NCBI GenBank assembly: GCA_949358305.1
Contig: OX442314.1
Coordinates: 19,964,001 to 20,028,000, forward strand
DNA length: 64,000 nucleotides
From: Strigamia acuminata
Lineage: Eukaryota
Direction: 5' to 3'
The position numbers were made by a program, and so were the translations under genes. How positions within the stretch are numbered: position 1 is the stretch's first letter; each line of letters begins with the position of its first letter. Shown in pieces: positions 14,180 through 48,585 of the stretch. Under the pieces are notes generated by a model. The model did not search any database. It saw nothing but the letters and a program-made list of their open reading frames with translations, and was not told the origin of the DNA.

Positions 14180-17100
14180 CTATTTAACAGCATTCTCTTT
14201 CTTTTTAGGATCTAAATCTTCTTCCAGTGATTTGTAGGAGCGCTCTGTACTTAAATTGTCCATATCCTCTACAGGAGATCCATCGGAACGCCCTGAACTT
14301 AAATTGTCAAAATCTTCTTCTGGTAGCTCAGCTTCAACATCTGTTCTTGGCACTGAAACTCTTGGTTCAGTTGAAATCTCTTCATCTTTTGTAAATAAAT
14401 TACGTTCTTGATCTTGTAATTTCAATTCACTAAATAACGTGTCAATTGTTTTCGTTTGCGAAAATCGTGAATCAATATCTGGCGTTGCGATGGTTAAATC
14501 TTGTTTTCCAATCAAGAAATAAACATTAATATCACCTATAAACTACAACGAGTAAAACTAAATTTTGACAAATGGCCACTTCAGTTTCTTTACTCATAAC
14601 CAACCTTGATATTGACTTCTTCCTTAAAAATCATAGAATAAGTTCCAACTTTGTCTAACAACCTAGCTGTCGATTCTGAAATCTGTATGGCATTGGCTAA
14701 ACCAATATACAATTAGTCACGGTTTAAATTAAATTCCAATAACTAATTTACCCGTTCCAAGCGATTCCATAAATTGAGCAATTATAACATCTTCCCCAAA
14801 AATGCAATAACGTGGCATTTTAATACCAACAATCGCAGCAACACAAGAACCTGATTTTAGGTCGCACATAATTTGGCGCCAAATTGTTTATGGTACTTAT
14901 ATAATTTTGATATATTTACCCGTATGAATTCCAATTCTAATCTGTATTCTTTCGTGTGGCAAGTGCCTAACTAGGAAATTACTAAGTATGGCTACAAAAT
15001 GCAATGACATAGTAGCAATTTGCTCATAATGGTCCTTCACGGGAGTCGGAACGCCACTTGCAACACAGTCTTAAAATTTTAAAATAGATTTTTCTAAGCA
15101 TACAAATAAATGCTGAAACTTACACGCATCTCCAATTGTTTCCAGTTTGTAGACGTTAAATGATTCAATAATAGTGTCAAAAGCAGTGTATAAATCATTC
15201 AGCAGTTCAACAACTTCAATTGGTTGACTTCTATTAGCAATATTAGTGAATCCCACTATGTCGCTGAAAACAAATCAATTAATGACTGATTAAGCTGCTC
15301 ATTTAAAATACCTCTTATGGTTCAAAAATATATTTCCAAATATATTGCTTTTCACTTAATGCATTCCAAAATGCAGAGCATTTTGCTGAATTACGTTTAT
15401 GTTTACTATATAAAATACTGTTTACATAAATTGTTCAGGCTACTGGCTACTGGCTACAACTACCGTAGCATGAACATTTTATGTGAGCACGATTGTGTAT
15501 TAAATAATGCATTTTATAATACAATTGAAAAAATACATTTGAAAATGCATTTTTATGAAAAATAATAATATTGGGAATGCATTTCATAAATGCATGCAAA
15601 AATGTATTACAAGATGTATTCTCGTGAAACTCAATGCTTTTCAAAATATCATTCATTGCAATACATTGCAATACAATTTAAATGTATTTATTAACCATAT
15701 GGAAACTTTCAGCACCTGAATAAAATAGTAACATTGTGAAAATATTCAGGATGCACTTCTAGGTGTCGTGTCATTTGCGTGGCAATAAAAGGAGGTAGTA
15801 AACGTTTAATTAAATTCTCGGTTTTGTTTTTTTCTATTTGTACTTCTTCAACTTTTTCATTAAGAATGTCTTGCAAATGATTAGTATATTGTTCTAACTA
15901 TAAATGAAATAAAAACTTTTTGTAAGTCACTGCGAGTAACTTTAAAAAAAATCAACAGTAGTACACGTTGAACAAAGTTCTTATTTTTTAATTCACCATA
16001 AAAATCAAATTTTGAACTAGTTCTCCCTTCAGCGGATGAATTTTACCAATCGTTGTGATAATTTCTTTGAAGTGCGGCCGAATCAATGGATCTTCTGCAG
16101 TTGTGCTCAAAACAAGCTAAATTTTACGCACAAATTAAGATAATTTGTCTCGAATACCATTTTTAATTATTGTTACTTCTTCAATTCCCCTTTTCTCAGA
16201 GAAGATTTCAGGCATATTAGATTGCGTCAATGCCGGTCGAATGGGCTTAGATGTATCATAATCATGCATTTCAAGAAGCTAAATGGAAATATCACTTCTG
16301 TCAATTACAATTAATTTTACGAGGTACAAAATATCTAAGGATCACCTGTTTAATGCCCATAGTTCCAGGGTCAGTAAAATTTTTGAGAACTCTGATCAAC
16401 TCCTCAATGGACAAAACTTGCAATTCATAATCAAACGGGTTTTCACAATTGCAAACTTCCGTTAAAATAATGCCAAAAGAATAAACGTCTCCTGTCTGTG
16501 TTCCAATTCCTAGTTCGTTAGCAGTCATGGATACACGAAGTAATTCAGGCGCAGTCCACAACATGGATCTTTCAATAGAAAAAGATACCAAGTAACTCAA
16601 TCCTTTTAACCAATCCAAGCATAATAAGTAATTGATTCATATAATTATTAATTTTGGTGCGACGTCGCTGAATACGGACGGGCGATGAACCACTTTGAAG
16701 TCATTCTTGAAATAACTCACCGATATATCTTTTCTAATTGTTCCACAGAGTACATTTTTCGTCTGAGCGTAGGCACACCAAAACCTAACCATTTACTATT
16801 TTTAATTTTTAATTTATGAATAGTATGTTATGTTATAACAACAGGCAATACCAGACACTTTACATATCCATCGATTATCAATCAGGCAATTTGTAGACTT
16901 CAAATTGCCGTGTGATCCAATGTTCGAATTATGTAAAAATTCCATACCACATGCAATATCTCTCAAAATTGAAAATTTGAAACTCCATGAGATTTTGTAT
17001 CGAGACATCTGCAAGATGTCAGCTAAACTCCCCTGAAAAAAGTAAATAAATCAACACAAACCAGATCTCAGGTGCAGTCAACAATAGAATTCAACAAACA

Positions 17101-20100
17101 ATAGAAGTTCATTGCTAAAGCATTGACAACACCGCATATCACGCACTATCAGGGCAGTTTTTCAAGTAGCGGGCACTTCGGTAAGAAAATAACATTTTTA
17201 CAGCTTAAATGCAGACGACACTGTCGGGTTTTCTACCCAAGTGCCGCCACATGCTGGATTTGCTCGTGCCTAACATCACTTCTACGAAACTGTTTGAACA
17301 TAGATCGTGAGTGTTTTGTCTCTTCTGGTTTTAATCTTTACAAAGTTTCATAGCAATTACGTATACGTAACAGCGTACTCTGTGTGGTCCGAACGAAGCA
17401 CCGTCCATACAGCTCTGAGGTCACCCCTCTCTTGCGGAGTAGTACGACCTAGTGAGGGAAAGGCGGGAGCTGAGTGGTGTAGGGAGAGAAGAACGCTGGG
17501 TCTCGACCGAGACAGACGTGTAAAGAAGTCACTGTGAAGTCAGCAAGAGCAGTGACGCTCAGTGGTGAGATGTTGGATCCACCACAGCCTCCATGAGCGG
17601 TTGCATGGGCCGTAGGTAAGTACAGCGGAATAGTAAAGGCTAACCGACACGTCATTCATGGGGATAACCTCCCTGTGTGTGACAGGTCGGTTGCTGGTGT
17701 GGCGTGCCTTCGCAACGATTAACAAAGACCAACCACCCAACAATCTGGAATCCCTGTCTTTATTTACGTGAGCATGTGTTCCACCTTATGCTGCCATGGA
17801 TAAGATCATGCTGTCACATCATGCTGTCACAAAAGTACAAAAATGAAAAAATTTCACTTTTTGAGTACAATTCATTGTGATGGGACACTTAGGCATGTGC
17901 CTAATGTGTCCACCAGTCACTACTGACCACACAAAGCATACAGTATTATATCTGCATAATTATAAGGTGAACTAAAACTACTTACTTTCGGCACAACTTC
18001 CAAAAGAAGGCAAACATTAGGAGATGTAAGACACACTCCAAACAATCTTACTAAGTTAGGATGTCTTATTTTATATAAGTAATTTATTTCTGCTCGAAGC
18101 AATAAATCATTGACGTTGAAAGAATCTACACCAAATTCCTGAAAATGCAACAAGCAAGCACAGTTGTAAAATACGATACTCAAACAAAGATACAGATGCA
18201 CCAGCTGCACAACAAATACGTGCCTTAACATAGTAAATATTTCCTTTCCAAATAGCTGTATGTTTTATAATTGTTGGCGTCATGCCGGTGTAATTTGACT
18301 CAAGAACAGATTCTTTTTCTATTGATAAAGATTTTGCAGCATAGGATATGTGCGACATAGTCAATCTTGGCAAACCAAGAATTGTAGATGTAGAAGTAGT
18401 TACAGCACTCTGACCGATATTGATCGCTTCAACATCATTCCAATAGACAAGCCAATCCAAATTTTTAATTGCTTCCAGTCGTTCCAAACTAGACAAAAAC
18501 AATCGAATTAAAATTCCTAATCGCAGAACTTGTCTAGATCTATAACTGGATTACCGCCTTTTTATCCACAAGAAAACAAGTACCAGCACTGCTAGGACAA
18601 TTACACAACCAAGTAGTATCGATATAATAAACAAGCCGATTAAAGTACTGCAATTATGACCGAAATACCCAACGTTACACTGGCAGTAATTTGGGGCAAT
18701 GCATTTACCATGCAGACACTCAAACCTAAAAATAATAAAAGTTTAATTTGGGATATGTTCAAATATTTTAGAAAATACAACATACTCGCATGTCGGTACG
18801 TTGCACGATTTTCCAGACCAAAGAGGATTGCAGGAGCAATTGAAGGGACCCACACAAGTACCTTGAAAACAGCTGTCACATACCACGTTTTTGCAATTTT
18901 TACCCGAATAACCAAATTTGTAATAATCATTTTTCGACACGTTTGGGTATATTTCCCCTAAAAAACGACATCTACAATAAATATGTAGTAACAAAAATTA
19001 TAAAATGTAATATAATTTCATCGTACGAGTACGTATCGTATTTTCTCTAATCTAGTAATTATATTCGCTCCTTCTTATAATTCTAATGTGTCTTCTAGTA
19101 TGGTAATGATGGTACCGTATTACCTCACATTAAGCCGCATGCCGGTATAATTAGAGTTATACCGGCATGACGATAAACCTCGTTTATAACGGCATGCCGG
19201 TGTAAGTGAGTACAAATTTTTCTAAATGAGAATTCAGCCAAAACAAGCATAAAATCCTTTTTACATCTTCAAAATGTAAGAAATTGCCTTAAATTTCTAT
19301 AAATTTACCCAGATTTCGGTAAAAATCTGCTGAAAATAAAGAAAACTTAAAATTTAGGCCCAAAAATCAACATAATTATTTATCCAGGCTCTTTAAGGTA
19401 AAAAAAACAAAAAGCCCGCTTTTTCACTTATATCGGCATGTTTCGCTTTATACCAGCATGCCAGTATAAACTTTTTGCACGAAATTTTAAAAACCTGGTA
19501 AAGCCATGCCCAACGGCATGCCGCTTTATGTGAGGTAATACGGTAATTATTTTTGACATTTCTTCTGAATTTTAATTAAGCAACATCAAATTTAATAAAC
19601 AATTAATAATTCTCAGACAACCTTTCGTAATGTATTTCTCCAGTTGAACACATTAAAATTATTGCAGAAATGTAGAATTAGAAAAAATACGATAAAGCTA
19701 AATAATAAAAACAAAGAACCTGCATTCATTAGGTGAAACACAAACGCCATTTTTATATTCAATTTGAGTGTGTGAATTTAATCTTCCTCCACCACAAGTA
19801 CCATCACATATATATGGAACCACTGCTAACTCTGTTCTTAAGCAAATTGTATCCACAGTTTTGAACTTTTTACTCGACATAAGCTTCCCTGTGTTTGAAA
19901 GATACCCACATGTTGATACATAGCTAGAAAATTAAATTAAATTAAATAAACAGCCAAATAAAGAACTGTTATTTTTATATTGCAGAATCCGAATAATTCC
20001 AAGAACAAAACTCCTCTACAATAACAAATCTTTACAGGATCAATAACTTTTGTTGGAAATAAATTCAGGCACTATACGAATGATATTGGTGAAATGTTAC

Positions 20101-23100
20101 AAGTGATTTTATTTCATCTATATTCTGTACAAAGACTTCAATACAAAGTTAATACTAATCGCTGATTGGTTCCACTGATCCTGCATAATTAAAACGTGAG
20201 CACTCGCTCAATACATTCATTAACGTGTGGCTTCTCTGCGGCGCTCGGTGAGACCATTGGCGCTTCCGCATGCCTTGGTTAAGTGACTTACCAAGGAATG
20301 GCCACCTGGCGGCCGCCTCTTCGCCTCATAGGTCGGCACGGCCCTGTCCGTACAATCCTAACAAATTCCCCTCACGGATCGCATCAATTCTCACCAATAA
20401 ACGCAATTACTCCTTAGATTGTCGATCTGCTTTTGCTATTCCTAAGCTCACAAGATTACTTAGGAATGTCGGTCCCAGTAGTGACTTTGTAAGGATATCT
20501 GCCAACATGTCGATCCCCGAAATGTGTCGTACTTCAATCCTGTTGTGTGTAATTTCATCCTTAATAAAGTGCAATCTTCGGTTAAAGTGTTTCGTGCGTG
20601 TTTTCTGAGGTCCTCGTTGTAGCAATTGAGTCTCGTTTAAACTGTCACAATATACTATGAATTGTTCCTTCTTTTGTAAATGTCCAAAGTTTTCAGCTGA
20701 ATTTCTCATCCAAGTTAACTCCTTGACCCCCTCCGACAACGTGTAATGTTCGCTCTCTATACTCGACATTGCAACCAAGGTTTGCTTCTTGCATCTCCAG
20801 TTAATCAGGGTGCTTCCGTCTCTGATTACGTAACCGGAAAATGACTTCGAATCAGCCGAGCAATCCCAACTGGCGTCGGTGTACGCATGTAAATTGAGCT
20901 CCTCTCGTTGGTACGTCAGTCGATAATGCATTGTCTTCCGCAAATATATTGTAATGCACTTGCCTCAGGTCCGCATTGTACTGCGATAATGTGCTCATCG
21001 CAAAGCTAATATTGGGGCGCATGTTTGTGGCTAAATACATTAATATACTGATAAATTCCTGGTACTCCGGGTCCATCGATGTCACCTTCGTGTGGCAATT
21101 TTTCATACTGTATTGCAGTAAAGTCGTTTCAATATACTTCGATTGATGGAGTTGTATGCCGGCATTGTCTTGATCCACTTGAATTCCGAGTATTGACGAT
21201 AATTTGCCCATTGGAATTAGTTCGATTTCGTTGCAGTTCATGTTGATTACCTCCTTCTCGAATTTGTCGGATAATGCGGCCACAACTGTGTCATGAACAT
21301 ACATGCCCAGGAACAAATACTTGTTGCCTCTTCATATGACATACAAACACGGATCATCTAGAGTTTTTTTGAATTTTACATTTGTTTAGACTTGGTTCAA
21401 CTTCTCGTACCAGCATCTCCCCGACTGCTTGAGTCCGTAAATGCTTTTGTGCAATCTGCACACATTGTCGGTTTCATCACCCTGTCCATCCGGTTTCTCC
21501 ATGTAGTTTTCTTCCTCCTGCCAGCTCCCCATGCAAATAAAGCGCATCTAACATCGTATTGGTTTAGTGTTATCCCCCTCTTGGCTCCCTCGTTTACAAG
21601 CATTTGCAACGTCTTCTTGTTAAAATTGCATCCCAATTTTTGCTTGTAGCCTGCTGCCACGAGTCGTGCCTTGTATCGCTTCTCCCCGGTGTTCGGATTC
21701 ACTTTTATCTTGTAGATCCATTTCGATTTTACCGATTTCTTGTTCGGCAGCAATTTCGTGATCGTCCAGACTTTGTGCTTCTCCATTGATGCAATTTCGT
21801 CCTTCATGGCTCTTTTCCATTTGTTAGAGTTGACGGAGTTCGTGGCTTCGTCATAGTTCCACGGATTTCCTCAAATCTGTAAGTCCTTGACGTCTCACTC
21901 CTTTTTGTAGGAGTTCCTCTTCATTTGCGCGTCATTTTTCTTCGTCTCGAACTCTGCATTCGGCATTCGTGCCTCTCGATGTTCGTCCTCGTATATTAAG
22001 TTGCGACTTAACTATTTCCTCATCTTCGTCTGCGTTTTCATCGTTTGGTTCAATGATTTCATCCTGCGCTTCACGATCTTAGTGATGTGTGTCCACATCC
22101 TCATCTATCCGTTGTGTACAAGTTGTACGCAGATGCTTCATAGATCTAACATCTCGATCTCAGGGATTCCGTCGTTTTCATCGTTTGGAGTCATTTTCTT
22201 TAACAATGATGCCCCCAATTCGCGCTCGATAAACTTTACATTTCGTTTCTCGCTCAATTTTCTCGTCCCCAAATTGTAAACTCTATAGGCCTTTTGTATC
22301 TGTGAATATCCAACAAGAATTTTTTTTCCCGGCTTTTGTGTCGAGTTTATTCCGTCCTATGTTCTTCGTGAAGACAAAAACTGCACATCCGAAACGTCTG
22401 AGACAGAAAACTGTTGGTCTTCAGTTGTTCCAAATTTCCATTGCCATTCGTCCATGTGTCTTCGAATAGCATAAGTTGCGGATGTATGCAGCAGTGCACT
22501 TGCACTCCGTCCAAAAGTTTAGTGGCAGCTCTGTGTCGCATAACATCATTCTGATCATCTCAAGGATCGTGCGGTTGTGGCGCTCCGCAACCCCATTGCT
22601 TTGCGGTGTGTATGGTGTCGTGCATTGAGGGTTCGTTCCGGGTTCTTGGAATCACTGCGTCAATTCGTCCGACACGAACTCGCCTCCGTTATCACTTCTG
22701 ATAGTTTTTAAACGATTTTCGGTTTGTGTCTCGTGTCGTACAATGAGTCGTTGCAATTCATTCGTCGTGTCGCTCTTTGCTTCGAGAATTTGCACCATTG
22801 TCGTCTACTCCAGTCTCGTTTTGTGTGGTTTTCGAGTTAGCTTTCTCTTAACACATGATTCGCAAACTGTCGTGTCATTGTTCTTGAAGTCTAGTCCTCG
22901 TACTAGTTTGCCGTCTTGCATCAGTTGTATCGACTGTTGTGTCAGATCGCCGAGTCGTCAGTGCCACATCTCGTTCGTCTCGCTTGAAAATCGGACTTCT
23001 TTACCGCGCAGCACTCTTGACTTGATGAAAAAACTGTTTCCGTTACAGCGTGCTCACATCAACGTTTTCCGCTCTCGACTATTGTGACTCCATTCTCCTT

Positions 23101-26100
23101 GAATAATATGTCTTTGTTGATTTAAACTTTTTTTGCAGTCCAGATATAACTTGAAATTTTGTTTGTGGGTCGGCGATAGTGTTTCCGAATTGCTCGTTTT
23201 CACTTAGTAGAGCTTCTAGTCGATTGAAATATTCATCGATGGATTCTCCTTACTCCATCTTGAATTGCGCTAATGCGATGATTCACATGTATTCCAGTGC
23301 GGCGGTGTTGATGGTGTTATTCGTTTCGATCTTCTTCCACAACTTTTTCGCGTTCTTGTCGTTGCGGTAACGTACTACTTGTATGTCCGCTAGCGTATCG
23401 ATTATGATTTCCTTTGCTTCGTTGTTGGCTGTTTGCTATTTTCTCCACATTTCTTCTGTCTTTTTGAAAACGGGCGTGACTGTGGGTCCACATGGCGGTT
23501 CGTCTTCTTCGATTGCTGATTCCTACAGTTGTCTTCCTTCTAATGTCAAGATAATTTTTGTGAACCACAGCATGTAGTTGTTGTCGTCCAATAATACCAT
23601 ATGGTGGATAATCTTGTTGTGGTGCGTTGTCATCTTCAAAACGTGTGCATTAATTTCGAGGTTGATCGTCGCTAATCGTCTCGTTTCAAAATTCCCACAA
23701 TTTGTTTTTGACTTGTCGTCGGCATCTTCAGTCGTCAATAAGATTCAGTCATGCTATCAGATCAAACCACCCTCTGATACCAGATGTTGGAAATAAATTT
23801 AGGCACAATACGAATGGTATTGGTGAAATGTTACTATACTCTAACCGGACTCAAAAAGGAGCAACAGTCTCATTGGTCGAGCCAGTTTACTGGTGTAGTG
23901 ATCCGAAAAAGTAGAGCCAAACACCAGAATTGCAAGCAATGTACAGACATTGTAATCAATTGCCTAAGCAACGGCCAAAAATTCAAACTTGTTTACTTTC
24001 CAGACATAGTAACCAATAAACATAACAAACATGAGTTTGACATTGTTAAACTTCATTTAAATGATGGAAATAACATTTCATAATAAGAAAAATCGAAATT
24101 ACATTAACTATAGTAGTAATAACCATCACAAAGAAAAATAAAAATTAAAACTATTTCTCTTAGTAGTAGTATACAGTCTGGAGTTAATAGTAAACTGGCT
24201 CAACCAATGGGACTGTTGCTCCTTTTTGAGTCCGGTTAGAGTATAGTGATTTTATTTCATTTATACAAAGACTTAAATTCAAAATTAATACTAATCGCTG
24301 ATTGGTTCCACTGATCACACGTGATCAAAACGTGATCACGCGCTCAATACGTTCATTAAACGTGTGGCTTCTCTGCGGCGCTCGGTGAGACCATTGGCGC
24401 TTCCGTACAATCCTAACAACTTTAACTTAACTTTGATGTAAATATTTATCATCCAGTTATAATGTTTAATATACGAAAGAATAGCACTTACTACATTGCC
24501 GTCACTGCAGTTGCATTAGGTAGTATAGGTAGAAGATATTGCGTCCGACAATCTACAAACTCCGATGGCACACATTCGATCGGAATGTCAATTAAATGTT
24601 TGAAACTTTGTTGATTATCAATCGTGAGTTCAAGTTTTCCACCCAAACTTCTTCTTTTACGATACCAAAACGTTTCATAATACTGTAGATAAGTATCTGA
24701 CATTAGAGACCACCTCACAGCATTTCTCAGCTATCGAAAACAAATCGCAATAAATATAATTGACTATTAGAACTGTTTGCTTATTGTTACGTATAATCCA
24801 TCAGCAACAGTGTTTTTTCGGCCAGTAACTAAAATACCAATCGCTATGGTTGAATCTAGTCGAATCCCCCCAGTCGATGAAAATCTAATAACACCAGTTA
24901 AACCTTCAAATGTTAACTAATTATCAAAACAAAAATAATTATATCAGTAAACAAACAACGGTAACAATCAGTCGATACTTACTTCAGTAAATCCTTGGAC
25001 TACAGTGTATTTAGATAAAATTTCATTGCTGCTTAGCAATTTTTCAAACGAGTAAGCAAATGTTAGTACAGCATCGTAACCTAATGCAAATTTATCAGCA
25101 ACCTGATCAGAAAGATATCACGTTTTCATTAATTCAATAACAGCAATATTCAATTGTTTACATTTAAACTGTCAGTAGTTGGTATGCCATAATAGTCCAC
25201 GTGATTCATTTCAAAAAATTTACGATTTACATGATACCACAGATCAGTGGAAAATCCAGATAAATTATAAGCTTTATAAATCATGTGCATTCCTTGAAAG
25301 GCTTCTAAGCATGTTGGTTCCTGTTTAACGTATATATAACATATTTTTCAATGAATACGCCTTATTTACATTTATGTAATCTACAGTCTACACCAGGGGT
25401 TCCCAAACTTTTTAGCATCGCGCCCCACTTTTTAAGCAAGGTGATCTTCTGCGCCCCACTTCATCTACCAGTGCATTAAATTTTTAAAAAATATACTACT
25501 AAAAAGAAAAAAAGAAATTTTTATATAATTTTGCATAAAACTTTGTATAATTTTTTATATAATTTTATATAATTTTGCATAAAACTTTGTATAATTTTTT
25601 ATATAATTTTATATAATTTTGCATAAAACTTTGTATAATTTTTTATATAATTTTATATAATTTTGCATAAAACTTTGTATAATTTTTTATATAATTTTAT
25701 ATAATTTTGCTTAAAAATTTAAAAAAATTTGCAAAATAAGCTTGTTTTATTTAGGCATGTATGATGGGTGCGCCCCACCAATAATCAGCTCGCGCCCCAC
25801 CAGTGAGGCGCCCCACCAGTGAGGCGCGCCTCACCGTTTGGGAAACCCTGGTCTACACCATGCTCGAAATGGAATATTTCATGAACTAAAACACCACTTC
25901 AAAATTTAAAAAAAACAAAAAACAATAATTTGTTCAATTACAAAATTCCGAGAAAAAAATCAAAAGTTACTCGTAACCTACAACTTAGAACTACCGATTA
26001 TGTAAATTCTGTGGAAAAATAACTACAGTACGTCGAAAAATGATCACGAACTGAAACAATATTTTCCATAATTTCACTCTCGTGCATTTCGAGCCTTGAA

Positions 26101-32787: not shown

Positions 32788-33463
32788 TTTTGTTAAGAAT
32801 TTGTAAGCATCACGTTTCGGCACGAGCATTGTTATAGCTAAAGCGCATCATTATGATAACAAAACTGAAACAGACATACAAACATCGTACATTATTATTA
32901 TTGTTGTTTAATAAGACTTGTTTTCGGCCTTTCATTATCAGCTACGCTTTGTACTGATGTTCTTTCACAACGTAAGATCGCCGCCTCGCTCTACCGTTCT
33001 GACAATAGTCAAATTATCAAATCAAACCCGATTCAAATTGTTGTCTGAGAAAACTGAGAGCCCCGAAAGGGTTTTGGGAATCTGTTTGGCATGTCTTAAG
33101 TTTGAACGAGCGATCAAGAATGAGTCTGATCCAAAAGTCGGAGTGTTGGCTAATGCTGGCACTGGAGGCCAGGGTGTAAGAATCAAATTTTGCAAATGGT
33201 TCCATTTTACAACTAGTTCGCATGATGTGTTTTATTATTGTAAACGCTTTCAGACCTCCTTGTAATGAATGAGCAGATGGAGTAATTGTGTCATTTTGTA
33301 TCAATTAGATACTGAATTCGGAATCAAATTTGTATTCTCCAACATATTCGTATTTAAAACCTTTAAACCGCATGAAAATAATTTTTATGTCTCCAACCAA
33401 CAAAAAATAAAACACACTGTAAACCAAACTAACACAATTTCATAACAACAAACTTATTTAACA

Positions 33464-36400: not shown

Positions 36401-39400
36401 CTGAAAAAAGTAAATAAATCAACACAAACCAGATCTCAGGTGCAGTCAACAATAGAAGTCAACAAAGAATAAAGTTTCTTAGCAATTACATACACAGTAT
36501 ACTCTGTGTGGTCCAAACAAAGTGTCGACCAGACAGCTCTAAATTCTTTCTTTATCAACTATGCACGGCCACCATCAAACTTACACAAAGCTGGTGTTTT
36601 GGTGACATCACTGGTTCCTTAAACCCACACAACCAAATTCATCAAAATTCGACTCAAATTTAAAATGACAACTGGGAAGAAACAATTCGATACCACAGTT
36701 GGCATTGTGTAAATTCTTTATTACTCTCAAAACTTGACATAAGATGTGTCCAGAGTAGAGAGCACATACAACTAATCTGACTGGATATTCTCCGAGTAAA
36801 ATTCATTACTGACAAAATAATGGAAAGCCCATGTGGATCCCTATGTGATGGGATGGGACACTTAGGCATGTGCCTAATGTGGCCAACGGATAATCCACCA
36901 GTCACCACTGACCACACAAAGTACACAGTATTATATCTGTATAATTACCGGGTGGCCCACATAAAAGCGGCCCGACAATGCGAAAAGGGTTACCACGGGA
37001 GTCTAAAAAAATGTACCGGTATGTATTGTTCAATTAAATATATATTAATCGTTAGTTGTGTGTAGGATTTGTTTCATTAATGTTTCTGATGCAGGTTTTT
37101 CCGCTCTTTCGTTTGGTGTTTAGTTTTTGACGATCCGAGCATTGGTTCTCGAGATATTTGCAATTTTAATCAATTATTGTCCGAATTCGCCAAGTTTGAT
37201 TGCACTAGTCATTCCTGAATTTCGTGGTACTTTTTGAATCTTTTCAATAGTACTTTTGTGGATTTCTTCAGATGTACCAGTACGAGATTGTGCTTGATTT
37301 TGTGAAATTTTCTGAGATTGTGCTTGATTTTGTGAAATTTTTTGAGATTGTGCTTGATTTTGTAAAATTTTCTGAGATTGTGCTTGATTTTGTGAGATTT
37401 TGCTTAAGTAAAGTCGTGTGGTACTAAAAAAGGTACCAGTTACCAGTCCCAAATTGCGGAATTTTTTGTAAAGTACTGTGTACTGTGTACCAGTACTGCT
37501 AAATAAATCCACAAAATTACCACAAAATCTAAAATTTAAGCTAACTAGTGCCATCAAACTTGGAAAATTCGGACAAAAATTGATGCAAAATGCAAATATC
37601 TCGAGAACCAATGCTCGGATAGTCACAAACTAAACACCAAACGAAAGAGCGGAAGAAACTGCACTAGAAACATCAATTAAACAATACTGCCCTCAGCTAA
37701 TGATTAATGTATATTTAATTTTGTGCGTAAAGACATTTTTTTGAGTCACTCTTCGTAACCCTTCTTGTGTATTGTCGGGCCGCTTTTATGTGGGCCACCC
37801 GGTATAAGGTCAAGATGTACTAAAAATACTTACTTTCGGCACAACTTCCAAAAGAAGGCAAACATTAGGAGATGTAAGACACACCCCAAACAATCTTACT
37901 AAGTTAGGATGTCTTATTTTATATAAGTAATTTATTTCTGCTCGAAGCGATAAATCATTGATATTGAAAGAATCTACACCAAATTCCTGCAAATGCAACA
38001 AACAAGCACAGTTGTAAAATAGTATTTTACAACGGGGCGGTACGGTATTGTATGTTAAAAATACAATACCGTACCGCCCCGTTTAATAGCCCGGGCGTTT
38101 AATTCTTTTGAGCCCCCTCCCCGCGCCAATTTGAAGCCCGGCGTTTAAACAAACCCGGCGTTATCACTTGTCGCACCACATTAGCCCGTGTCGGGTGACG
38201 TTATTCGAACATGTCGCGCCACATTAGCCCGGGTCGCACCACGCTATTCCGGACCACCGTAAACACAGCATGTCGCGTTTAGCAATTACAAAGAATGTAA
38301 TGCCGATGTAATGCCGATGTAATGCCGATCGCGCCCTGTACGCATCATCTTAATATCACCCCATTGTTATAATATCGAATCACGAATTCTTGTACTTTGT
38401 ACTTGTACTTTGCCCAACCATTCCTTAAAATTATTCAGCCTCTGATTAGTTGCTTCCTCGGTTCTCAAACAGATACACCACCTGCACAACAAATACGTGC
38501 CTTAACATAGTAAATATTTCCTTTCCAATTAGCTGTATGTTTTATAATTGTTTGCGACATGCCGGTGAGATTTGACGACTCAGGAACAGATTCTTTTCCT
38601 ATTGATAGAGATTTTGCAGCATCGGATGTGTGCGACACAATCATTCTTGGCACACCAAGAAGTGTAGATGTAGGAGTAGTTACAGTACTCAGACCGATAT
38701 TGGTCGCTTCAACATCTTCCCAATTGACAAGCCAATCCAAATTCTTAATTGCTTCCCGTCGTTCCACACTAGATAAAAATAAACGAATTAACATTCCTAA
38801 TCGCAAAACTTGTCTAAATCTATAACTGGATTACCGCCTTTTTAACCACACGAAAACAAATATCAGCACTGCTAGGACAACGGCACATGCAAGCAGTATC
38901 GATACAATAAACACGCCGATTAAAGTACTGCAATCACGACCGAAATATCCAACGTTGCACTCGCAGTAATTTGGGGCAATGCATTTACCATGCAGACACT
39001 GAAACCTAAAAATAATAAAAAGTTAATTTAGAATATGCTCGAATATTTTAGAAAATACAGCATACTCGCATATCGGTACGTCGCACGCTTTTCCAGACCA
39101 AAGAGGATCGCAGAAACACTTGAAGGGACCCACACAAGTACCTTGAAAACACTTGTCACATACAACGTTTTTGCAATTTTTACCCGAATAACCAAATTTG
39201 AAATAATCATTTTTCGACACGTTTGGGTATATTTCCCCTAAAAAACGACATCTAACAATAAATAAGCTTATGTAGTAACAAGAATTAGAAAATGTAATAT
39301 AATTTCATCGTACGAATATGTATCGTATTTTCTCTAATTATATTCGCTACTTTTTATAATTCTAATGTGTCAATTAATGTTATTTCTTCGGTCTTCTTGT

Positions 39401-42400
39401 ATGGTATTGATGTAATTATTTTTGACATTTCTGAAGCTTGTAAATTATTTCTTCTGAATTTTAATTAAGCAACATCAAATTTATTTTAATAAACAATTAA
39501 TAATTTTCAGACAACCTTTCGTAATGTATTTCTCCAGTTGAACACACATTACAATAATTGCAGAATTGTAGAATTAGAAAAAATACGATACAACTAAATA
39601 ATAAAAACAAAGAACCTGCATTCATTATGTAAAACGCAAATGCCATTTTTATATTCAATTTGAGTATGTGAATTTAATCTTCCTCCACCACAAGCACCAT
39701 CGCATGTATATGGAACCACTGCCAACTCTGTTCTTAAGCAAATTGTATCCACACTTTTAAACTTTTTACTCGATATAAGCTTTCCTGTGTTTGAAACATA
39801 CCCACATGTTGAGACATAGCTAGAAAATTAAATTAAATTAAATAAATGGCCAAATAAAAAACTGTTATTTTTATATTGCAGAATCCAGGTAATTCCAAGA
39901 ATAAAACCTCTCTACAACAACAAATATTTACAGAATCGATAACTTTAACTTTAACTTTGATGTAAATATTGATCATCCAGTTGTAGTGTTTAATATACGA
40001 AAGTATAGCACTTACTACATTGCCGTCACTGCAGTTGTATTAGGCTGTACAGGTACAATATATGGCGTTGAACAATCTATAAACTGCGTTGGCACACATT
40101 CGATCGGAATGTCAATTAAATGTTTGAAACTTTCTTGATTATCAATCGTGAGTTCATGTTTTCCACCCGAACTTCTTTTTTTACGATACCAAAATGTTTC
40201 ATAATACTGTTGATAAGTATCTGACATTAGAGACCACTTCACAACATTTCTCAGCTATCGAACAAAATCACAATAAGTATAATTGACTCTATTAGAACTG
40301 TTTGATTATTGAGTTACGTATAATCCATCAGCAACAGTGTGTGTTCGGCCAGAAACTACATTAGCAATCGCTATTGTTGGTTCTAGTCGAAATCCCCCAG
40401 TCGCTGAATATCTAATAACACCAGTTAAACCTTCAAATGCTAACTAATTATCAAAACAAAAATAATGACAACGGTAAACAAACTACGGTAACAATCAGCC
40501 GATACTTACTTCAGCAAATCCTTGGACTACAGTGTGTTTAGAGAAAATTTCATTGTTGCTTAGCAATTTTTCAAACGAGTAAGCAAATGTTAGTACAGCA
40601 TCGTAACCTAATGCAAATTTATCAGCAACCTGATCAGAAATATATCACACTTTCATTACGTAATTCAATAATTGCAATAATTCAATTATTTACATTTGAA
40701 CTGTCAGTAGTTGGTATGCCATAATAGTCCACGTGATTGATTCCAAAATATTTACGATTTACATGATACCACAGATCAGTGGAAAACCCAGATAAATTAT
40801 AAGCTTTATAAACCATGTGCATTCCGTGAAAGGCTTCTAAGCATGTTGGTTTCTGTTTAACGTATATAACATACTTCTCAATGAACACGCCATATTTACA
40901 TTTCTGTAATCTACAGTCTACACCATGCTCGAAATGGAATATTCCATGAACTGGAACACCACTTCAAAATTTAGAAAAAAAAAAGAAAAAAAAAAAGAAA
41001 ACAATAATTCGTTCAATTACAAAATCCCGAGAAAAAAAATCAAAGGATCACAGTACCAACTGTGCTGCAACCTACAACTTAGAACTACCGGTTATGTAAA
41101 TTCTGTGGAAAAATAAACTACAGTACGTCGAAAAATAATCACGAACTGAAACAATATTTTCTATAATTTCACTCTCGTGCATTTTGAGCCTTAAATCTAA
41201 CATGTACCATAGCACAAAGTGGATGCTGACTGTCCCAATCAAATTGCTTCGCAGCAACTTGCATTGTAATCCATTTATAGCCGTGCATTGGTGCAACCCC
41301 ATATCTAAAACATAAGAAATGTATTCTAAATATCAGTTTTAGTTTAAATCGTAGCAAATAATTGTTACTTTATAGCTTGTCTGTACACAAAATATTGTTT
41401 AGGAGCAAGTACAGAACAAAGAACAATTTTGGCTCCATATTTTTTTGCCTCTTTTATGTCTTCCAATAAATCTGTTTGATTTCCAACATATATCTACAAA
41501 GCAAGAATTTCAATTCTTGAATAACAATATTAGATGATTCGTATTAACAAACTCTCGTTATAACGAATCGATTTTCTCGGACCCTTGCGATTCGTTATAA
41601 AGCGTTTCGACTGTATCTACAATTGTACCTGGTTTAGGACAATTTTCCTGGATTATCATGAGAAGTATGCTATGTTTTTAATTTATGCGCATTCGACTTA
41701 TTTGAATATCCCCAGACTGGCCCTAAACATGTGACCAAAAGTTTCCTAATTTTCCAAAATCTTAAAATTAATTAGAATCACTTTCGCCGTCAACATAGAA
41801 ACAGTTCTCATCTCAACGCACGAGGCACAAATACAGCCCGAATTCTCATGGTTTTCCATGCAACCAGCGCTATTTTCATAGCATCATACCGTATTTTGTG
41901 TTAGCCAAGCTGAAGAGAAAAGCCTGTTAGTGGTCTCAATTCACTGACATTTTAGCCAAGAACTGCTGACGACCTCTCAATTTCTGGACTTGTTTGTAAA
42001 GTATTTGTCGTCTCAATTGTACATTTATTTCTGCATTTCCGACTTGAAGATGCGGTTTGCTCTCAGGCACCTGCAAGCGCGTGTACCCAACGTCTATGCA
42101 AGCGTGGGAGAAGAGAATTCTCTTCATTGCGCGTTTTGTGAGTGACGAATTTCTCCCTCAGCGAGACACAGTATTTTGATCTCAATTCGGATACTACAGT
42201 TCGCCATTTTGCAAGCACCCGGGCTGATATCCTGCACCCAACAAAATATTAGATTTCACAAACAGACGCTGTCTTTACAAAGCTACCCCCACTGTGTGTG
42301 GCTGCGAGACGGAACGTCGCAACGACGTGCCTTTCTTACAACATTACGTCGCAGCGACATGCTGTTGCTAATACGGCACGTCGCTAAAAAGGGCCGTCGC

Positions 42401-45400
42401 TAAGACGTGCTAGCGGGCAAAACATTTTTGGGTCGCTAGAAAGTAACGTCTTAGCACAAAGTCGCTAAGATGGGCGACGCTAAAGTCACCTAATCCGTCT
42501 TAGAATCCCCTTTCCCACATTTTATTATTTAGTTGTAAGACCAAGTGCCATTAAATTCATATATTCTCATGCGTGTCATTATTGGGTATTTTACATACCA
42601 TAGGGGAGATGATTATAAGTGTACGAATCCACCCACTAGATAATTTACAGAACGAGGTGAGAGGCAACAACGTACTTACTCTGTGAACTACTGTATATTT
42701 AAATACACGAATTGTCTTCATAAAGTCAGCTAATAATTGAATTTCGACATCTTCGAATGTAAACTGAAATCGCAATATGTATACATATGTAATAAATTTA
42801 AGAACACCTTCACTCACTAGATAAGATCCTTGGTTCTGCAAAAATGTTCCCACTCGTGGTGCAATGTCAGCAATATTCCATTCAAGATTAAATGTACGGT
42901 CGTAGGTCTCCTAGAACATATTTTAGATCAGTTTATCGTGCAAAATATGCAATTTCAACCTTTGATATAAACTGAACCAAGTCTTCACGATAGGTCACAG
43001 TTGGCAATTGATAGCTCAAGAAAAGAATATTCATTTTAAGTGATATATCATTATCTCCAAATCCTATAATTCCACTTATGAGTTCGTCTCTAGAATCCTA
43101 TTTTGGTATAAGTGTATGCTTAGTTAAATAACGAGTTAATATTAATCCACTACCAGAAATTTGAACTATAGTTTATTGTCCTGTTTCTGTACTTTGCTGC
43201 ATAGCCCTACTGTTTACTGAGTACAATTGATTAACTTTTTTAATAGTTACTATACTTAATCTCAATTTTTTGGTAATGCTTAAATGCTTAGGACTGAATA
43301 TGACCTGCAGTTCCTCGTCCAACATAGTCATAAACTGATCCAGGGCTTTAGTGGCATTTTGCTCGGTATTATATACTTTTAAATTAATTTTTAAATCTAA
43401 TGAAAAAAATGTGTATAACAGAAATATGTGTCACCAATAACAAAAATGCTTTAAAACATACTTGAGTCCATCAGATGTTTAAGAGTATCCTTAAATTGAG
43501 GAATATTATTGTTGATATCTTCAACTGCTAAGATCGCAAATGTGGCCGTCACTGGATCAGGATCAGTTTCACCACCGGCTGTGTTAAATCTTCCAAATAA
43601 ACCAATGTGGAGCAAATCTGTACAAACAAGCATCAGAATTGATAAAAACAGAAAAGTACTAAAAAACTTCGCAGATTTTTTTTCCCATGACCGATTACAA
43701 GACGACAGAAAGACATACTGTACATAATAGGTAGTGATTGGTGCATACCAATATCACACACAGGACGAAAACTAAACTTGCCTATTTGAGCTAAATAGTG
43801 TGAGTGGATAAAAAACAGTAAATTCTTGCAAGAGAATGTAAATAATGGGATTACGGGAATTGAAAATTGGAGAATTATCAGTCAAACTACAGAGTTCTCT
43901 GTGCAGACTGGACAGTTGAGTGGTCCGGACAGGTCAGCAAGAACAAGGCCCCAAACCACATTGCAATAGGAAAAATTGCTCCCCTGTCCGGACAGCTCTC
44001 TCCTCGGGACACCGGACAAAGTGATGCGTCCCGTATACATATCGTATAGGCAAGCATTTCTCATACTGTGAGGGCGCCCCACTGGTGGGTAGAGGACCGA
44101 CTTTTGCTGGATCGCAACACATGTCAGTGTTCAAATTAATAGGAGGTAAAGAAAATCAAAAGGGGAAAAAATTAATCAAGTCAAATGAATTACATTTTTC
44201 GTTGCATTAACTATGTACGGTTACACTGTCAAACACTTTGCTAGTTAAGGACGATTATTCTGCCAATAGATGGCACTAGTGAGTTTTATCGGCAATTGCG
44301 AATTTCGAACCATTTTGAGTAGTTAAAATATAAATTAGTATTTATATTCTAGCTTACTTTACGGTTAAACTGTTATTAAATATGTTAGATATATTTTACC
44401 GGTAATGTTGTTTTGATCAGTTTACAACATAATTCTATTGAATTATGTATAAACTTCACACCTGGTGTAGTCACCCCTCACCACCCATTGTGAGTTGGAT
44501 TCCTTTAGGATTATAGTCAAAGGGACTTAATGCAAAGTGTGTCCTGCATATCCAGTGGACCTAGTAGAAGACTATGTCCTAGGTATCCACTTCCTATAAT
44601 CTAGGATTGGATGGATTTAGGTGCCCAGTGATCCCATTGGATCACTGGACAGCCCATTCTTCACACCGAGTATATATTCCCATGTAAACCGGATATAGCT
44701 GGCTCTTGTCTTGTTTTCTGTTTTGTCACTACTTACTTGAGCACTAATATACACTTCACTTCGTTCCGACAATCCGTTGTAGAAATACTTGTTATTTAGT
44801 GTAAGAATCTACAGTGGGCTGAAAAACCACGGACACACTCCCGCCTCTTCATGCCAACATTCTGTTGTAGAAATAGTAAGTTCACTTGCATTTAAGTGTA
44901 GTATCTAGAGTGGGGTACAACCCACAGACGCACTCCCTCCCGCTTCATGCCAACATCCCGTTGTAGAATGTAGAATCTAGAGTAGAGCAATTCACAGACG
45001 CATTATAATGTAATATCTAGAGTGGAGTAATTCATAGACGCATTATTGAAGTAGCCGAGCGGAGTTGTTTCCCGGTTACTCTCCCGCCCGTCAGAACCGT
45101 GTTGGAGTAATTTCCCGGTAATGGCATAACCTTTCCTGCGAGAAACTTCTTGATTCAATTCGGTGTTGGATGATGGAACATCTTAATTATTGTTTTGATG
45201 TTGATTGCACTTGGGGCAAAAATAGTTCGGCGCTATTTTAATTTTACACAGATTTTCGTGAGCTTCGTGATTTTAATATCATGTTGAATTCTATTGAATT
45301 AACATAAATATTTTCCCAGTCTGTTTCACATTGTTACATCTCGCTGTAATTATTATTTACAATAATTACTAGCGATGCGATGTGTGTGACGATGATGAAA

Positions 45401-48400
45401 AGTCAACCGCACCTCTCGGATATAACCCACCTAAGCCTAACCATTACACACCCTTTTAGATCCAACCCAGAACCAGTCAGACGCTAGAACCATTCGAACC
45501 CATTTAAGACGACATCTTTTACGTCACGGTAATGAGAACGATAACTATTCTTATTACTAGACTGAAGCCATCAAGTGATATTATTTTAGGGCTTTTTGCC
45601 AACCAATTGTATATTTTAACGTGAAGTTATTTTAGCCATTTGTAGGCCTAGTATTTATATAAGTTCCAATTCGTAATAAATTGTTATATGTTTTGAGATA
45701 CATTAAGTCTGTATATTTTACACTTTTCACACTAGTTCACACTTTAATTATCTGGGCAATTGTATCTCCTAAACACATGTAATCAATAATAATTGCACGC
45801 TACAAACAAATCCAGCTTACAAACTACCGGTAAATAAACAAAAAAAAAAGCTATCAATGAAAAATTTCAAGGCACTTGGGATAAAGTGGGTCTGGGTAGA
45901 TTGACTTCCTAAAAAGTTTGAAAATCCCTGCTTCATTTCTTTGCAAAATATAAAATTTTCTTCAAAGGTCAAGTGCACTGAGTGAGATTTTTACATTTTC
46001 TGAAAGCCCGTAATAAAAAACCAATAAAAGTCGAGAAAAAACTGTGGTTAACAAATAAAAGCAGTGCATGATGGTCGTTGGTCCCTGCGTCATCAGTTTC
46101 CATCAGACAGTCATGCACATGCGAAGACTGACTGTCAATTGAAAATTTTATTCGCATTTTTTAAAATGATTTACGATGGTCCGAAAATGATTTTTTTTAT
46201 GCGACATTGCCACCAACTAAGATGAAGTCATTTCTTAAAGGATTTCCAATCAATCCAGTAATTCGAAAACAATGAATTAATTGAGGTCGGACATCTTGGA
46301 TCCACCCAGATCGAAGAAGTGGATCCAGGTCAAATAGACTTCAGAACTGACTTCGTCATGCTCTCACGCATTGCTTTTTTTATTACGGGCTTTCAGAAAA
46401 AGTAAAAATCCTACTCAGTGCACTTGACCTTTAACAAACTCTAGTCCGGACATGTGGCCTTTGTACGGACCAGAGAATGTACGCTCCATGGATTGGACAT
46501 TCCCTGGACCGGACAAGTTTCTGAGACCCATCTTATGTCCGGACCACACACAGTACACTGTATATATTTTAAAAAAAATTACTTGTAATTGAATATAAAT
46601 TGGAAAGTGGGGATTCCAAAACTTTTCCTGCTGCATCAAATGCCCTAAATCCAAATTGGACTCCATCTACAATATCAACAACGGCACCCAAGAAACTTCC
46701 AATTCCTCTAAAAGTTTTGAAAGTGCTGCCATTCAGAGACAAATTAACACTAGGTTCCGTAAAGACTTGAATATTCTAAACAAAAAAAGTCAAAATAAAA
46801 AGAAAATCAGTACAGTATTCGAGCCGACAGAGAAAAAAACTTACCAACGCTGAATCAGAACCTGAAAATACTCGACGTTTGTCAGCATCAAGAACTACGA
46901 CCCAAAGTCCAGGTATTTGAACATGGGCAGGGACATGAAATGATTCAGGCGATGTTATTTCGCTGTCAAAAACATTTAAATCAACGATCTGCAGTTCAGT
47001 GGCAGTCTGCGCTGGAATTGTTAAAAGAAAAATAAAAGAAAAAGAATTTCTGAAGAAAACTTCCATTCATTTATCTTGCCCAACCTGTCGTCTTTAAGCG
47101 AGTAAAAATTGCTGACTCCGATTTGTCTCGTGCTTCACACACAGGAGTCTGGTTATACAATTTGTATGTAGATGATGGTACAAATGCCCCTTGATCTTGT
47201 TTACAATCTTTTAAATACTCACAAAATGCAGATTGAGAATATACATTTTGCATTTCATAAAATGTAACACATGAATGACTCAAGTCGGAATATTCCAACG
47301 GCTGTCTGTCTCCAGTTCGAGGAACAAGCAAAGTTGCATTTAGAAATAAAAACTGATAGCGATACACGTCCCGAATAGCCACATCCTTAAATTCGACAAA
47401 TCCATCTGTCGCTCTTTTATGCAGAACTTGATCGTAATTGCGGAACGACGTTATGACCTCATCACCTGCTAATTCAGCGTCCGTATTGTACAAAAAGTCA
47501 CGGACAAGCGCTCCTTGCATAAACGTTTTAGCTTGGTAACCAATAGTCACCTCGACTATCAAACTCGAGTCAAGTCCCGTCGTTATTCGATTCTTGTTTT
47601 GATCAACTATTTCCAAAGAAAACGTAAACAGTTGATTTGCAAACATTTCATCTTGGGGCTTCTGATGCCAATTTAATTTTGCAATTCCTTTAAATAAAAA
47701 TTAACCCATTAGTTAAATTGTATTTCTAGACATTAAAATTTACAATTTACGGTTATAAATTTTAATTGGATTTGTAAGAACCGACAATGTTTTCCCATTC
47801 ACGAAAACAGATAATCCGATTTGACGAAATACACAGTATTGATTTTCAGATACTGCATCGGTAATACTGTGAACTAGCCCTTGTGCGATGAGGTAGTTTC
47901 CATGAATTGGCACAAACGGAATTACGAGCTTATATTCCTGATAAACCTCAGAACTACACTTGCTTCTACAACATAAAAAGCAGAGCCTCTTAGTGAATTA
48001 AACAATTATGAAATGATTTCCAAATTTACTGTACCGAAAATGCTCCTCAGAAAATCGTCTGGGGTCACCTAATTCATAATCACTCGCGGCTAATTGGCAG
48101 ACTTTAATTAAGCTATCAGGGATTGATGATTTGCAACCACTAGACTCCGCAACGTTAACTGTAAGAATAAAGCCATTCTTTTTTAAGAAACACGACTACA
48201 TCGTGACATCGTTCATTAAGTACTGGCTGGTTGGGATGATATGTTAAAATGTTTTGGTCGTAATTGATACGGAATATCCTGTGGTCGTAATAGATTTCCA
48301 TTTGTTGTTGTGCATAAAAATGCCACAATTGGTCGACTTATTCTTTGATTATTTGACACAGAATAAATATCATCATCGGTATTTGGTTTAATTTCTGCTG

Positions 48401-48585
48401 GAAAGTAGTTTTTAAAAGGGCCCGTTTTTGGAAAACAAATCCCAATATCATCTAAATTTTTGTAAATTGTGATATGGAATTTTATTCAACGAATTAATTT
48501 ATTTCTTACCTGGTAATGAATAAACACAATCCAATAAACACAAGCGCAATAAGCTCATTAATAAACCTAGCTCTTTGGTGTTCAT
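33464..48585 (-). CDS. Receptor guanylyl cyclase-like gene, copy B (multi-exon)
   Basis: Collinear with copy A exon by exon. ATG at 48585. Phase-1 junction 46583->43617 joins the Ig-like region to [11 protein letters not shown] 2-bp change in an (AG)n tract ends the protein at EPTERE*. Confidence 0.85.
36948..37802. mobile_element. Tc1/mariner-type non-autonomous element with long TIRs and a 30-bp minisatellite
   Basis: TA|ccgggtggcccacataaaagcggcccgacaat ... |TA; long imperfect inverted arms; (gagattgtgcttgattttgtgaaattttct)x~4 at 37284-37400; empty sites in A (~17960) and C (~61440). Confidence 0.9.
38031..38460. mobile_element. Rearranged remnants of the ccgtaccgcc MITE plus sequence shared with the 62065+ insertion
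   Basis: Both TIR orientations at 38031-38085; 38350-38460 matches 62150-62660. Confidence 0.6.
44214..45768 (+). mobile_element. Probable long solo LTR (family E), 3'-truncated, in an rGC-B intron
   Basis: Collinear with the elements starting at 48901 and 49885; absent from copy A (~28686). Confidence 0.75.
45966..46430. mobile_element. Kolobok-like MITE (orthologue of 30137-30641)
   Basis: TCAA|AGGTCAAGTGCACTGAGT...ACTCAGTGCACTTGACCT|TTAA. Confidence 0.7.

What the first reader, a model, noticed from the sequence alone, without database searches (positions are those of the whole stretch)
14180..48585. Tandem family of receptor guanylyl cyclases with an unusual multi-module ectodomain (Ig-like repeats + ANF domain + EGF repeats)
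Seen: the apparently separate ORFs at 30.6-32.8 kb and 46.4-48.6 kb start with a signal peptide and have no terminal exon. They end at a phase-1 donor (30791, 46583) that matches the phase-1 acceptor of the ANF-domain exon (28095, 43617), giving ...LYSIT-N-VLHIGLF. A 9-bp in-frame indel between A and B in that exon supports coding status. The exons carry repeated motifs ([76 protein letters not shown]) that resemble Ig-like beta-sandwich repeats. Three EGF-like repeats precede the TM. Known: canonical animal rGCs (NPR-A/B, GC-C, retinal GCs, nematode GCY) have an ANF-type ectodomain without such modules. Inference: a lineage-specific expanded receptor family, possibly adhesion- or large-ligand-coupled cGMP signalling. 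I do not recognise this architecture.
Basis: partly seen in the sequence, partly recalled or inferred. Interest (0 to 1): 0.85.

Follow-up and report, generated by a model that had tools for sequence, protein, structure and literature searches.

The report
Half-enzyme cGMP receptor gene trio
This stretch of what is likely a centipede genome holds three recent side-by-side copies of a large cell-surface receptor gene from an old, apparently undescribed family that also occurs in molluscs, a worm and a single-celled relative of animals; all three copies lack two residues needed to make the messenger cyclic GMP, so they would likely signal only when paired with a partner that supplies the missing half of the enzyme.

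Summary
The exon 7-8 join is supported by phase, by the Strigamia maritima model T1JDE2, and by colinear mapping onto single-chain mollusc and annelid proteins. Architecture: signal, three beta-sandwich modules, ANF, three EGF-like repeats, TM, kinase-homology, cyclase.

Two corrections. (1) Only the triplication is lineage-specific. The architecture marks an old clade found in bivalves, gastropods, cephalopods, an annelid and, in a partial model, Salpingoeca rosetta. (2) The copies are probably not stand-alone cyclases. They keep both metal aspartates but have Ile and Phe at the catalytic Asn and Arg (sGC beta N548, R552), the sGC alpha pattern; 121 of 127 motifs in 120 relatives keep both. 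The cyclase is still under purifying selection (dN/dS 0.24), while the ANF domain diverges at about the neutral rate (1.21).

Best reading: alpha-like subunits of a heterodimeric receptor (0.6). The partner was not found, and there is no transcript or assay. Verdict: new variant of a known kind.

The parts
14180..32787 (-). Copy A, complete 34-exon receptor guanylyl-cyclase-family gene, 1906 aa
   Evidence: exons 10-33 are 729/1160 identical to S. maritima T1JDE2 and 496/1160 to T1IT78
33464..48585 (-). Copy B, complete 34-exon gene, 1932 aa, 89% amino-acid identity to A over exons 1-33
57767..61623 (-). Copy C, exons 23-34 only within the window (kinase-homology, coiled coil, cyclase, tail); 99% identical to B over exons 23-33; exons 1-22 not found in the window
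32712..32787 (-). A exon 1, hydrophobic leader, likely signal peptide (B: 48510-48585)
   Evidence: no signal predictor run
31953..32653 (-). A exons 2-4, module M1, predicted all-beta, weakly related to M3 (B: 47751-48451)
   Evidence: hhalign 24.7%; exon 3 does not map
31287..31889 (-). A exon 5, module M2, beta-sandwich with long insertions (B: 47085-47687)
30791..31213 (-). A exons 6-7, module M3, beta-sandwich homologous to M2; ends at the phase-1 donor (B: 46583-47011)
   Evidence: (hhalign 93.7%, E 1.9e-7)
24492..28095 (-). A exons 8-18, ANF (Venus flytrap) domain and start of the following beta region (B: 40016-43617); fastest-diverging folded part
24650..24661 (-). Basic R-K-R-R site (R-K-K-R in B at 40174-40185) in an insertion shared with T1JDE2; possible proprotein-convertase cut
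   Evidence: the convertase consensus is recalled and cleavage is untested
18555..19923 (-). A exons 19-21, three EGF-like repeats and the transmembrane helix (B: 38835-39819)
15997..18488 (-). A exons 22-28, kinase-homology domain (B: 35356-38768)
14605..15897 (-). A exons 29-33, coiled coil and cyclase domain; both metal Asp, base-reading Glu and Cys kept (B: 33956-35256; C: 58271-59758)
14771..14785 (-). Codons at the catalytic Asn and Arg positions read Ile (14785) and Phe (14773); same in B (34136, 34124) and C (58451, 58439)

Best explanation
A, B and C are recent tandem copies of a large single-pass receptor gene that keeps the metal-binding half of the guanylyl cyclase site but lacks its catalytic Asn and Arg, so each would likely make cGMP only as a mixed dimer with a partner receptor that supplies them. 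Steps. Shown: gene structure, domain order, residue pattern, membership of an old clade, purifying selection on the cyclase and on M1-M3, near-neutral change in ANF. From established knowledge: a class III cyclase site is built from two Asp of one subunit and Glu, Cys, Asn, Arg of the other (PMC3591389, PMC2576301), so an A/A, B/B or A/B dimer would have no complete site, and a dimer with an Asn/Arg-bearing partner would have one. Inferred: a ligand binds the ANF domain, which differs most between copies; the EGF stalk and TM pass the change to the kinase-homology domain, which releases the single site; M1-M3 act as a conserved outer extension or docking arm. Ligand, partner and tissue are unknown.
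For: Exon 32 aligned to human sGC beta (6jt0_B 529-556) puts Cys at 541, Ile at 548 and Phe at 552; same codons in A, B, C. sGC alpha shows the same loss in the printed alignment (4ni2_A). Both Asp and the Glu are kept in all three copies. Both S. maritima paralogs lack Asn and Arg too, so the loss is old. 121 of 127 motifs in 120 relatives keep both. Cyclase dN/dS is 0.24 (A-B), 0.21 (A-C), 0.04 (B-C), which argues against decay. Within the family, Argonauta has one member with an intact Asp half and no Asn/Arg (P0184) and one with Asn/Arg and altered Asp-side loops (P0186); 8 cephalopod-clade proteins show the latter pattern. Precedent for a heterodimeric receptor GC: ODR-1/DAF-11 (PMC5225109, passages). 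ANF versus M1-M3 N/S counts differ (Fisher p 3e-5; versus cyclase p 8e-4).
Against: No partner with Asn and Arg from this family was found in any centipede or other arthropod among the 120 listed hits (3205 passed the cut-off) or the 20 profile hits looked up by name; no genome is held. T1JDE2 reads Asn at the first Asp and lacks the second-Asp segment; this may be a gene-model gap, but if real that ortholog is fully dead. The retained Glu and Cys belong to the half that is otherwise lost, so retention of residues alone does not prove use. ANF dN (0.086) equals short-intron divergence (0.09), so relaxed constraint explains it as well as ligand diversification. The cephalopod 'beta-like' members mostly keep both Asp, so their half-loss is softer than the centipede's.
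Confidence: 0.6

Rival explanations
1. They are pseudo-enzymes: receptors that never form an active site. They act as decoys or dominant-negative partners of other receptor GCs, or signal through the kinase-homology domain and the acidic, Ser-rich tail.
For: Asn and Arg are absent in all five centipede-type sequences seen (A, B, C, P0001, P0004); the G-K-G loop near the C-end of the cyclase is also replaced; the pair P0001/P0004 sits on a long branch (0.76); no partner found; T1JDE2 may lack an Asp as well.
Against: Both Asp motifs and the Arg of the phosphate site are unchanged in A, B, C and P0004 across a split with about 43% identity; selective loss of one half is what a heterodimer predicts; Argonauta holds both complementary types.
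Confidence: 0.27
2. They are ordinary homodimeric receptor guanylyl cyclases with low or unusual activity.
For: Pfam cyclase and kinase domains are whole; top solved-structure relative is NPR1; base-reading Glu and Cys are kept.
Against: Both cross-subunit catalytic residues are replaced by hydrophobic ones; the sGC paper's Table 2 lists no activity for alpha2 or beta2 homodimers (PMC3591389, passage).
Confidence: 0.07
3. Exons 1-7 are a separate secreted protein, or the main transcript ends in intron 7, and the ANF part has its own start.
For: No RNA evidence for the join in this species; older oyster annotations split the gene at this place (P0125, P0126); read-through of the exon-7 donor gives a stop after 14 (A) or 3 (B) codons; the end of intron 7 translates as a signal-like stretch, and a hydrophobic ORF with a phase-1 donor lies at 30274-30166.
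Against: Single open frames of 1693-1698 aa on assembled contigs of about 6-7.6 kb carry both parts (P0016, P0018, P0023, P0030), and P0016 has the length of the merged oyster RefSeq protein; T1JDE2 joins them; exon 7 and 8 abut on the family profile. The signal-like start is out of frame in A and B and its ATG is changed in a third variant; the 30.2 kb ORF lies in a high-depth repeat. A minor short isoform is not excluded.
Confidence: 0.06

Closest known systems
Receptor guanylyl cyclases NPR1/GC-A and GC-C (PDB 9bcv, 9dzh, 8fx4, 1dp4)
   Same: ANF ectodomain, one TM, kinase-homology domain, coiled coil, cyclase; best solved-structure matches by sequence (E 1.7e-74) and among the best by fold.
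   Different: Three extra beta-sandwich modules, a beta region and three EGF-like repeats; separate clade in both trees; catalytic Asn and Arg absent.
Soluble guanylyl cyclase alpha subunit (PDB 4ni2_A, 6jt0_A)
   Same: Same residue pattern: Asp half kept, Asn and Arg replaced. This is what the cyclase domain works like.
   Different: Membrane receptor with no H-NOX or PAS domain; not a member; partner unknown.
C. elegans ODR-1/DAF-11 obligate heterodimeric receptor GC
   Same: Receptor GC subunits that each give part of one catalytic site (PMC5225109, passages).
   Different: Different ectodomain; their sequences were not compared here, so shared ancestry is untested.
Database proteins of the same family: S. 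maritima T1JDE2 and T1IT78, oyster XP_034298913, Haliotis LOC124121432, Dimorphilus DgyrCDS4599, Octopus 'speract receptor-like', Argonauta GAB1605771/GAB1605939, S. rosetta EGD73331
   Same: Same module order in the full-length members and one clade. All carry automatic names only.
   Different: Bivalve, gastropod and annelid members keep a full active site; centipede members do not. EGD73331 lacks EGF/TM and the cyclase end in its model; T1IT78's model lacks M1-M3.
Big_1 / invasin D3 / SMCHD1 Ig 6 / GH2 C5 / filamin beta-sandwiches and the Rel, Runt, STAT DNA-binding folds
   Same: M3 aligns at Z 9.0-10.5, rmsd 2.4-4.0 over about 92-109 residues; the family profile finds giant tandem-repeat proteins, two with Big_1 hits.
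   Different: No Pfam family hits M1-M3; several folds are tied; a shared fold shows no adhesion function.

Membership tests
Receptor (membrane) guanylyl cyclase family | Single-pass type I topology with leader and one TM | tested here: met
   Hydropathy peaks in exon 1 and exon 21; the signal peptide is by inspection only
Receptor (membrane) guanylyl cyclase family | Kinase-homology domain, coiled coil and class III cyclase in order | tested here: met
Receptor (membrane) guanylyl cyclase family | ANF-type ectodomain | tested here: met
   PF01094 at 40.8 bits over cut-off 25.4 on the ortholog; fold of family member P0011 matches NPR1, GABA-B, CaSR, mGluR
Receptor (membrane) guanylyl cyclase family | Guanine-selecting Glu and Cys | tested here: met
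Homodimeric active receptor GC (NPR1 type) | Complete active site on one chain, including Asn and Arg | tested here: not met
   Ile and Phe in A, B, C
Canonical animal receptor GC clade (NPR, GC-C/G, insect, nematode) | Groups with them on the intracellular tree | tested here: not met
   Family (26 and 27 rows) is one side of a branch with support 100 against 29 and 17 other rows; quick IQ-TREE and FastTree, unrooted, S. maritima proteins standing in for the window
Obligate heterodimeric GC (sGC alpha/beta, ODR-1/DAF-11 type) | One subunit keeps the metal Asp half only | tested here: met
Obligate heterodimeric GC (sGC alpha/beta, ODR-1/DAF-11 type) | Complementary partner in the same genome | tested here: inconclusive
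   No genome held; none among listed hits; complementary pair seen in Argonauta only
Obligate heterodimeric GC (sGC alpha/beta, ODR-1/DAF-11 type) | Activity only on co-expression | not testable with these tools
   needs an assay
Ig-like beta-sandwich (broad sense) | Predicted beta-sandwich domains that superpose on solved Ig-type folds | tested here: met
   AF2 model of oyster P0125, pLDDT 77.9; M3 Z 9-10.5, M2 Z 8.3-9.5 in single-domain rows; M1 was not aligned alone
Immunoglobulin superfamily proper (I, V, C sets) | Pfam Ig-set match | tested here: inconclusive
   No Pfam family on exon 5 or P0125, while the window's neighbouring L1-like exons hit I-set readily; absence from a list does not exclude it

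The most novel reading that the evidence does not exclude
This is an undescribed branch of receptor guanylyl cyclases older than animals (three beta-sandwich modules + ANF + EGF), which has split more than once into complementary half-enzymes. Centipedes multiplied the metal-binding half, cephalopods the Asn/Arg half, and each built a combinatorial repertoire of variable ligand-binding subunits on a shared partner. The simple ANF-only receptors of vertebrates, insects and nematodes may derive from this larger form.
Probability: 0.3. Interest if true: 0.8.

Novelty: new variant of a known kind. Interest (0 to 1): 0.6.

Why it matters
Receptor guanylyl cyclases are described as homodimers with a plain ANF ectodomain, with ODR-1/DAF-11 as the cited exception (PMC5225109). 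A conserved clade with a larger ectodomain, present from a choanoflagellate to molluscs and a centipede, changes the picture of where these receptors came from. Its repeated loss of one catalytic half gives a testable model for building receptor repertoires from mixed dimers. The Argonauta pair makes the co-expression test possible now. It also warns that database names such as 'ANP receptor 1-like' or 'speract receptor-like' hide this family.

Tried and rejected
Own-genome search: none held. RNA: no RNA holder listed; the two runs found behave as genomic DNA, covering introns, with no splice joints, so expression is untested. Word-index search with the N-terminal region returned only the Strigamia protein; relatives appeared only through the intracellular region, so that blank was a sensitivity limit. 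Profile of M1-M3 against PDB sequences: 2 hits, E 0.8 and 1.4, chance. Foldseek on the three-module model gave only low-TM multi-domain beta proteins. ESM Atlas: top scores 0.88 and 0.90 are unnamed clusters; named leads (SMCHD1 Ig 6, Big_1, filamin) score below 0.9, leads only. Metagenome scan with P0021 gave 1 locus of 2.4 kb with no useful context. A signal-like stretch before exon 6 (31268 on) was rejected as the translated pyrimidine tract of intron 5. Positive selection on ANF is not claimed: dN/dS 1.21 was not tested against 1 and dN equals intron divergence. The careful tree did not finish. No complex prediction was sent, because no centipede partner is known and a cyclase pair would pass by likeness to solved dimers. 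The family was not found in print in seven searches aimed at it (listings and abstract starts seen); most subscription papers are outside that library, and no supplements were read.

Full report
1. What is in the window. The window is eukaryotic, AT-rich, with short introns; no genome is held. Self-comparison shows three related blocks on the minus strand. The largest N-terminal exon has one hit among longer proteins, Strigamia maritima T1JDE2 (P0001, 69% identity, 1836 aa), which maps along A and B from end to end and along the 3' part of C. The source is therefore likely a centipede or close myriapod; this is inference from identity. The exon table gives 34 exons each for A (32787-14180, 1906 aa) and B (48585-33464, 1932 aa), all phases compatible, no internal stops, canonical sites except one GC donor. 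C shows exons 23-34 only.

2. The join across intron 7. No RNA run of this species was listed and the two runs found are DNA-like. Support is comparative. T1JDE2 has the same join. Relatives of about 1690 aa carry both parts in one chain, four of them as single open frames on 6-7.6 kb assembled contigs, one with the length of the merged oyster RefSeq protein. On a profile from 15 non-centipede ectodomains, exon 7 ends near position 457 with 11 residues to spare and exon 8 starts at 471; 15 of 21 exons scored above 4 bits, all in order, and reversed exons scored below 0. Against: older oyster models split the gene here, and a short isoform cannot be excluded.

3. The family. Searching with the intracellular region, 3205 proteins passed and 120 were listed. 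The N-terminal region of P0001 matched 15 of the other 119 at E below 1e-14 in that set and a few more weakly: Haliotis, Mytilus, oysters, Potamilus, Gigantopelta, Octopus, Dimorphilus and unnamed contigs. A profile of the modules over 1.84 billion representatives gave 636 hits at E 0.001. Of 20 looked up, 7 had names, all molluscs except Salpingoeca rosetta EGD73331, which has the modules, ANF, kinase-homology and a partial cyclase. In two unrooted trees of the intracellular region the family is one side of a branch with support 100 (26 of 55 rows, quick IQ-TREE; 27 of 44 rows, FastTree). I chose the 'other' rows from the 120 hits for diversity. The two Strigamia proteins pair on a long branch; the S. 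rosetta protein groups with three unnamed contig proteins. The window copies are closer to T1JDE2 than to T1IT78 (729 against 496 of 1160 residues), and dS among A, B, C is 0.04-0.11. So the architecture is old and the triplication is young. No named arthropod outside centipedes appeared among the family hits, but only part of the hits was named.

4. The modules. No Pfam family covers them. AlphaFold of the oyster N-terminal fragment P0125 gives a nearly all-beta chain (pLDDT 77.9) that I divide into three domains; the whole ectodomain of P0011 folds at pLDDT 84.4. M2 and M3 are repeats of each other (hhalign 93.7%, E 1.9e-7), M1 is weakly related to M3 (24.7%), and reversed controls give under 1%. 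M3 superposes on STAT, Runt, GH2 C5, SbsC and filamin domains at Z 8.1-10.5, many rows tied. The same repeat forms long arrays in giant proteins, two with Big_1 hits. 'Ig-like' is right in the broad sense; no adhesion function follows from it. The middle of the ectodomain matches NPR1, GABA-B, CaSR and mGluR flytraps.

5. The cyclase is a half-enzyme. In sGC the site uses D486 and D530 of alpha and E473, C541, N548, R552 of beta (PMC3591389, passages); Cyg12 work calls the Asn ribose-orienting and the Arg transition-state-stabilising (PMC2576301, passages). Exon 32 aligned to sGC beta has Cys at 541, Ile at 548, Phe at 552, in all three copies; both Asp and the Glu are present. Among the 120 listed relatives, 121 of 127 motifs keep Asn and Arg; the six exceptions are P0001, P0004, P0025, P0040 and two domains of a tapeworm protein. 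The domain is under purifying selection (dN/dS 0.24, 0.21, 0.04). M1-M3 are as well (0.27), whereas ANF is at 1.21, significantly different from both but equal to intron divergence.

6. Mechanism. I commit to alpha-like subunits of a mixed dimer (0.6): ligand on the variable ANF domain, signal through EGF stalk, TM and kinase-homology domain, one active site completed by a partner. The general activation scheme is from PMC5225109 (section 12), and ODR-1/DAF-11 is its precedent. I had reached the half-site reading before seeing it, and checked its claim in part: 8 cephalopod-clade proteins keep Asn and Arg but change the Asp-side loops while mostly keeping the Asp, and Argonauta has one protein of each type. 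That note is not independent support. The main gap is the missing centipede partner, which leaves the pseudo-enzyme rival at 0.27. T1JDE2's model lacks part of the Asp half, which counts against my reading if it is real.

7. Novelty. The proteins are in databases under automatic names. Seven literature searches aimed at the family found no description (listings only). The GC family phylogeny PMC1435932 has no occurrence of 'EGF' (passages); passages of PMC10073611 and PMC4342544 did not describe it. Subscription papers are largely outside the library. Every part has a known counterpart, so this is a new variant of a known kind: an unusual ectodomain on an old clade, plus a half-enzyme cyclase.

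Noticed in passing
window 50016-55428 (+): Ty3/gypsy-type LTR retrotransposon with one open 1565-codon frame (RT, RNase H, integrase) and two identical 227-bp terminal repeats, so a very recent insertion. It sits in an 8.5-kb repeat block between the end of copy C and the promoter of copy B.
   Followed up: partly
window about 20050-24400 (-), intron 18 of copy A: Decayed copia-type element (RVT_2 hit) with terminal repeats 87.5% alike (20102-20268 and 24245-24405); it makes intron 18 4568 nt in A against 196 nt in B. Its pol region is broken by stops and frame changes.
   Followed up: partly
window 1-5169 (+): Ig I-set and fibronectin-III exons of what looks like an L1/neuroglian-type adhesion gene (name recalled), with a block duplicated in tandem: 1-2242 against 2963-5169, 88.7% identical.
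   Followed up: no
window 18223 and 38500 (-): Intron 22 uses a GC donor in A and B; the S. maritima model seems to read through this intron.
   Followed up: partly
window 33098-36947 against 57423-61441: B and C are 96-97% identical here, introns and downstream spacer included, closer than either is to A: a younger duplication or gene conversion.
   Followed up: no
window 28072-28330 in runs X1, X2: Three sequence variants cover the exon-8 flank, one like A, one like B and a third; it may be the missing 5' part of copy C or an allele.
   Followed up: partly
P0025, P0040, P0228 (unnamed contigs): A separate subclade with only module M3; it has lost the catalytic Arg in all three and the Asn in P0025, a likely further independent half-loss.
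   Followed up: partly
P0188, P0190, P0192, P0198 and others: Giant proteins with many tandem copies of the same module; 13 of 67 proteins hit by an M3 profile have 4 or more copies. They look like bacterial surface proteins, but their source was not established.
   Followed up: partly
window 62782-63618 (+): 279-codon open frame with no Pfam hit, in the stretch upstream of C exon 23.
   Followed up: no
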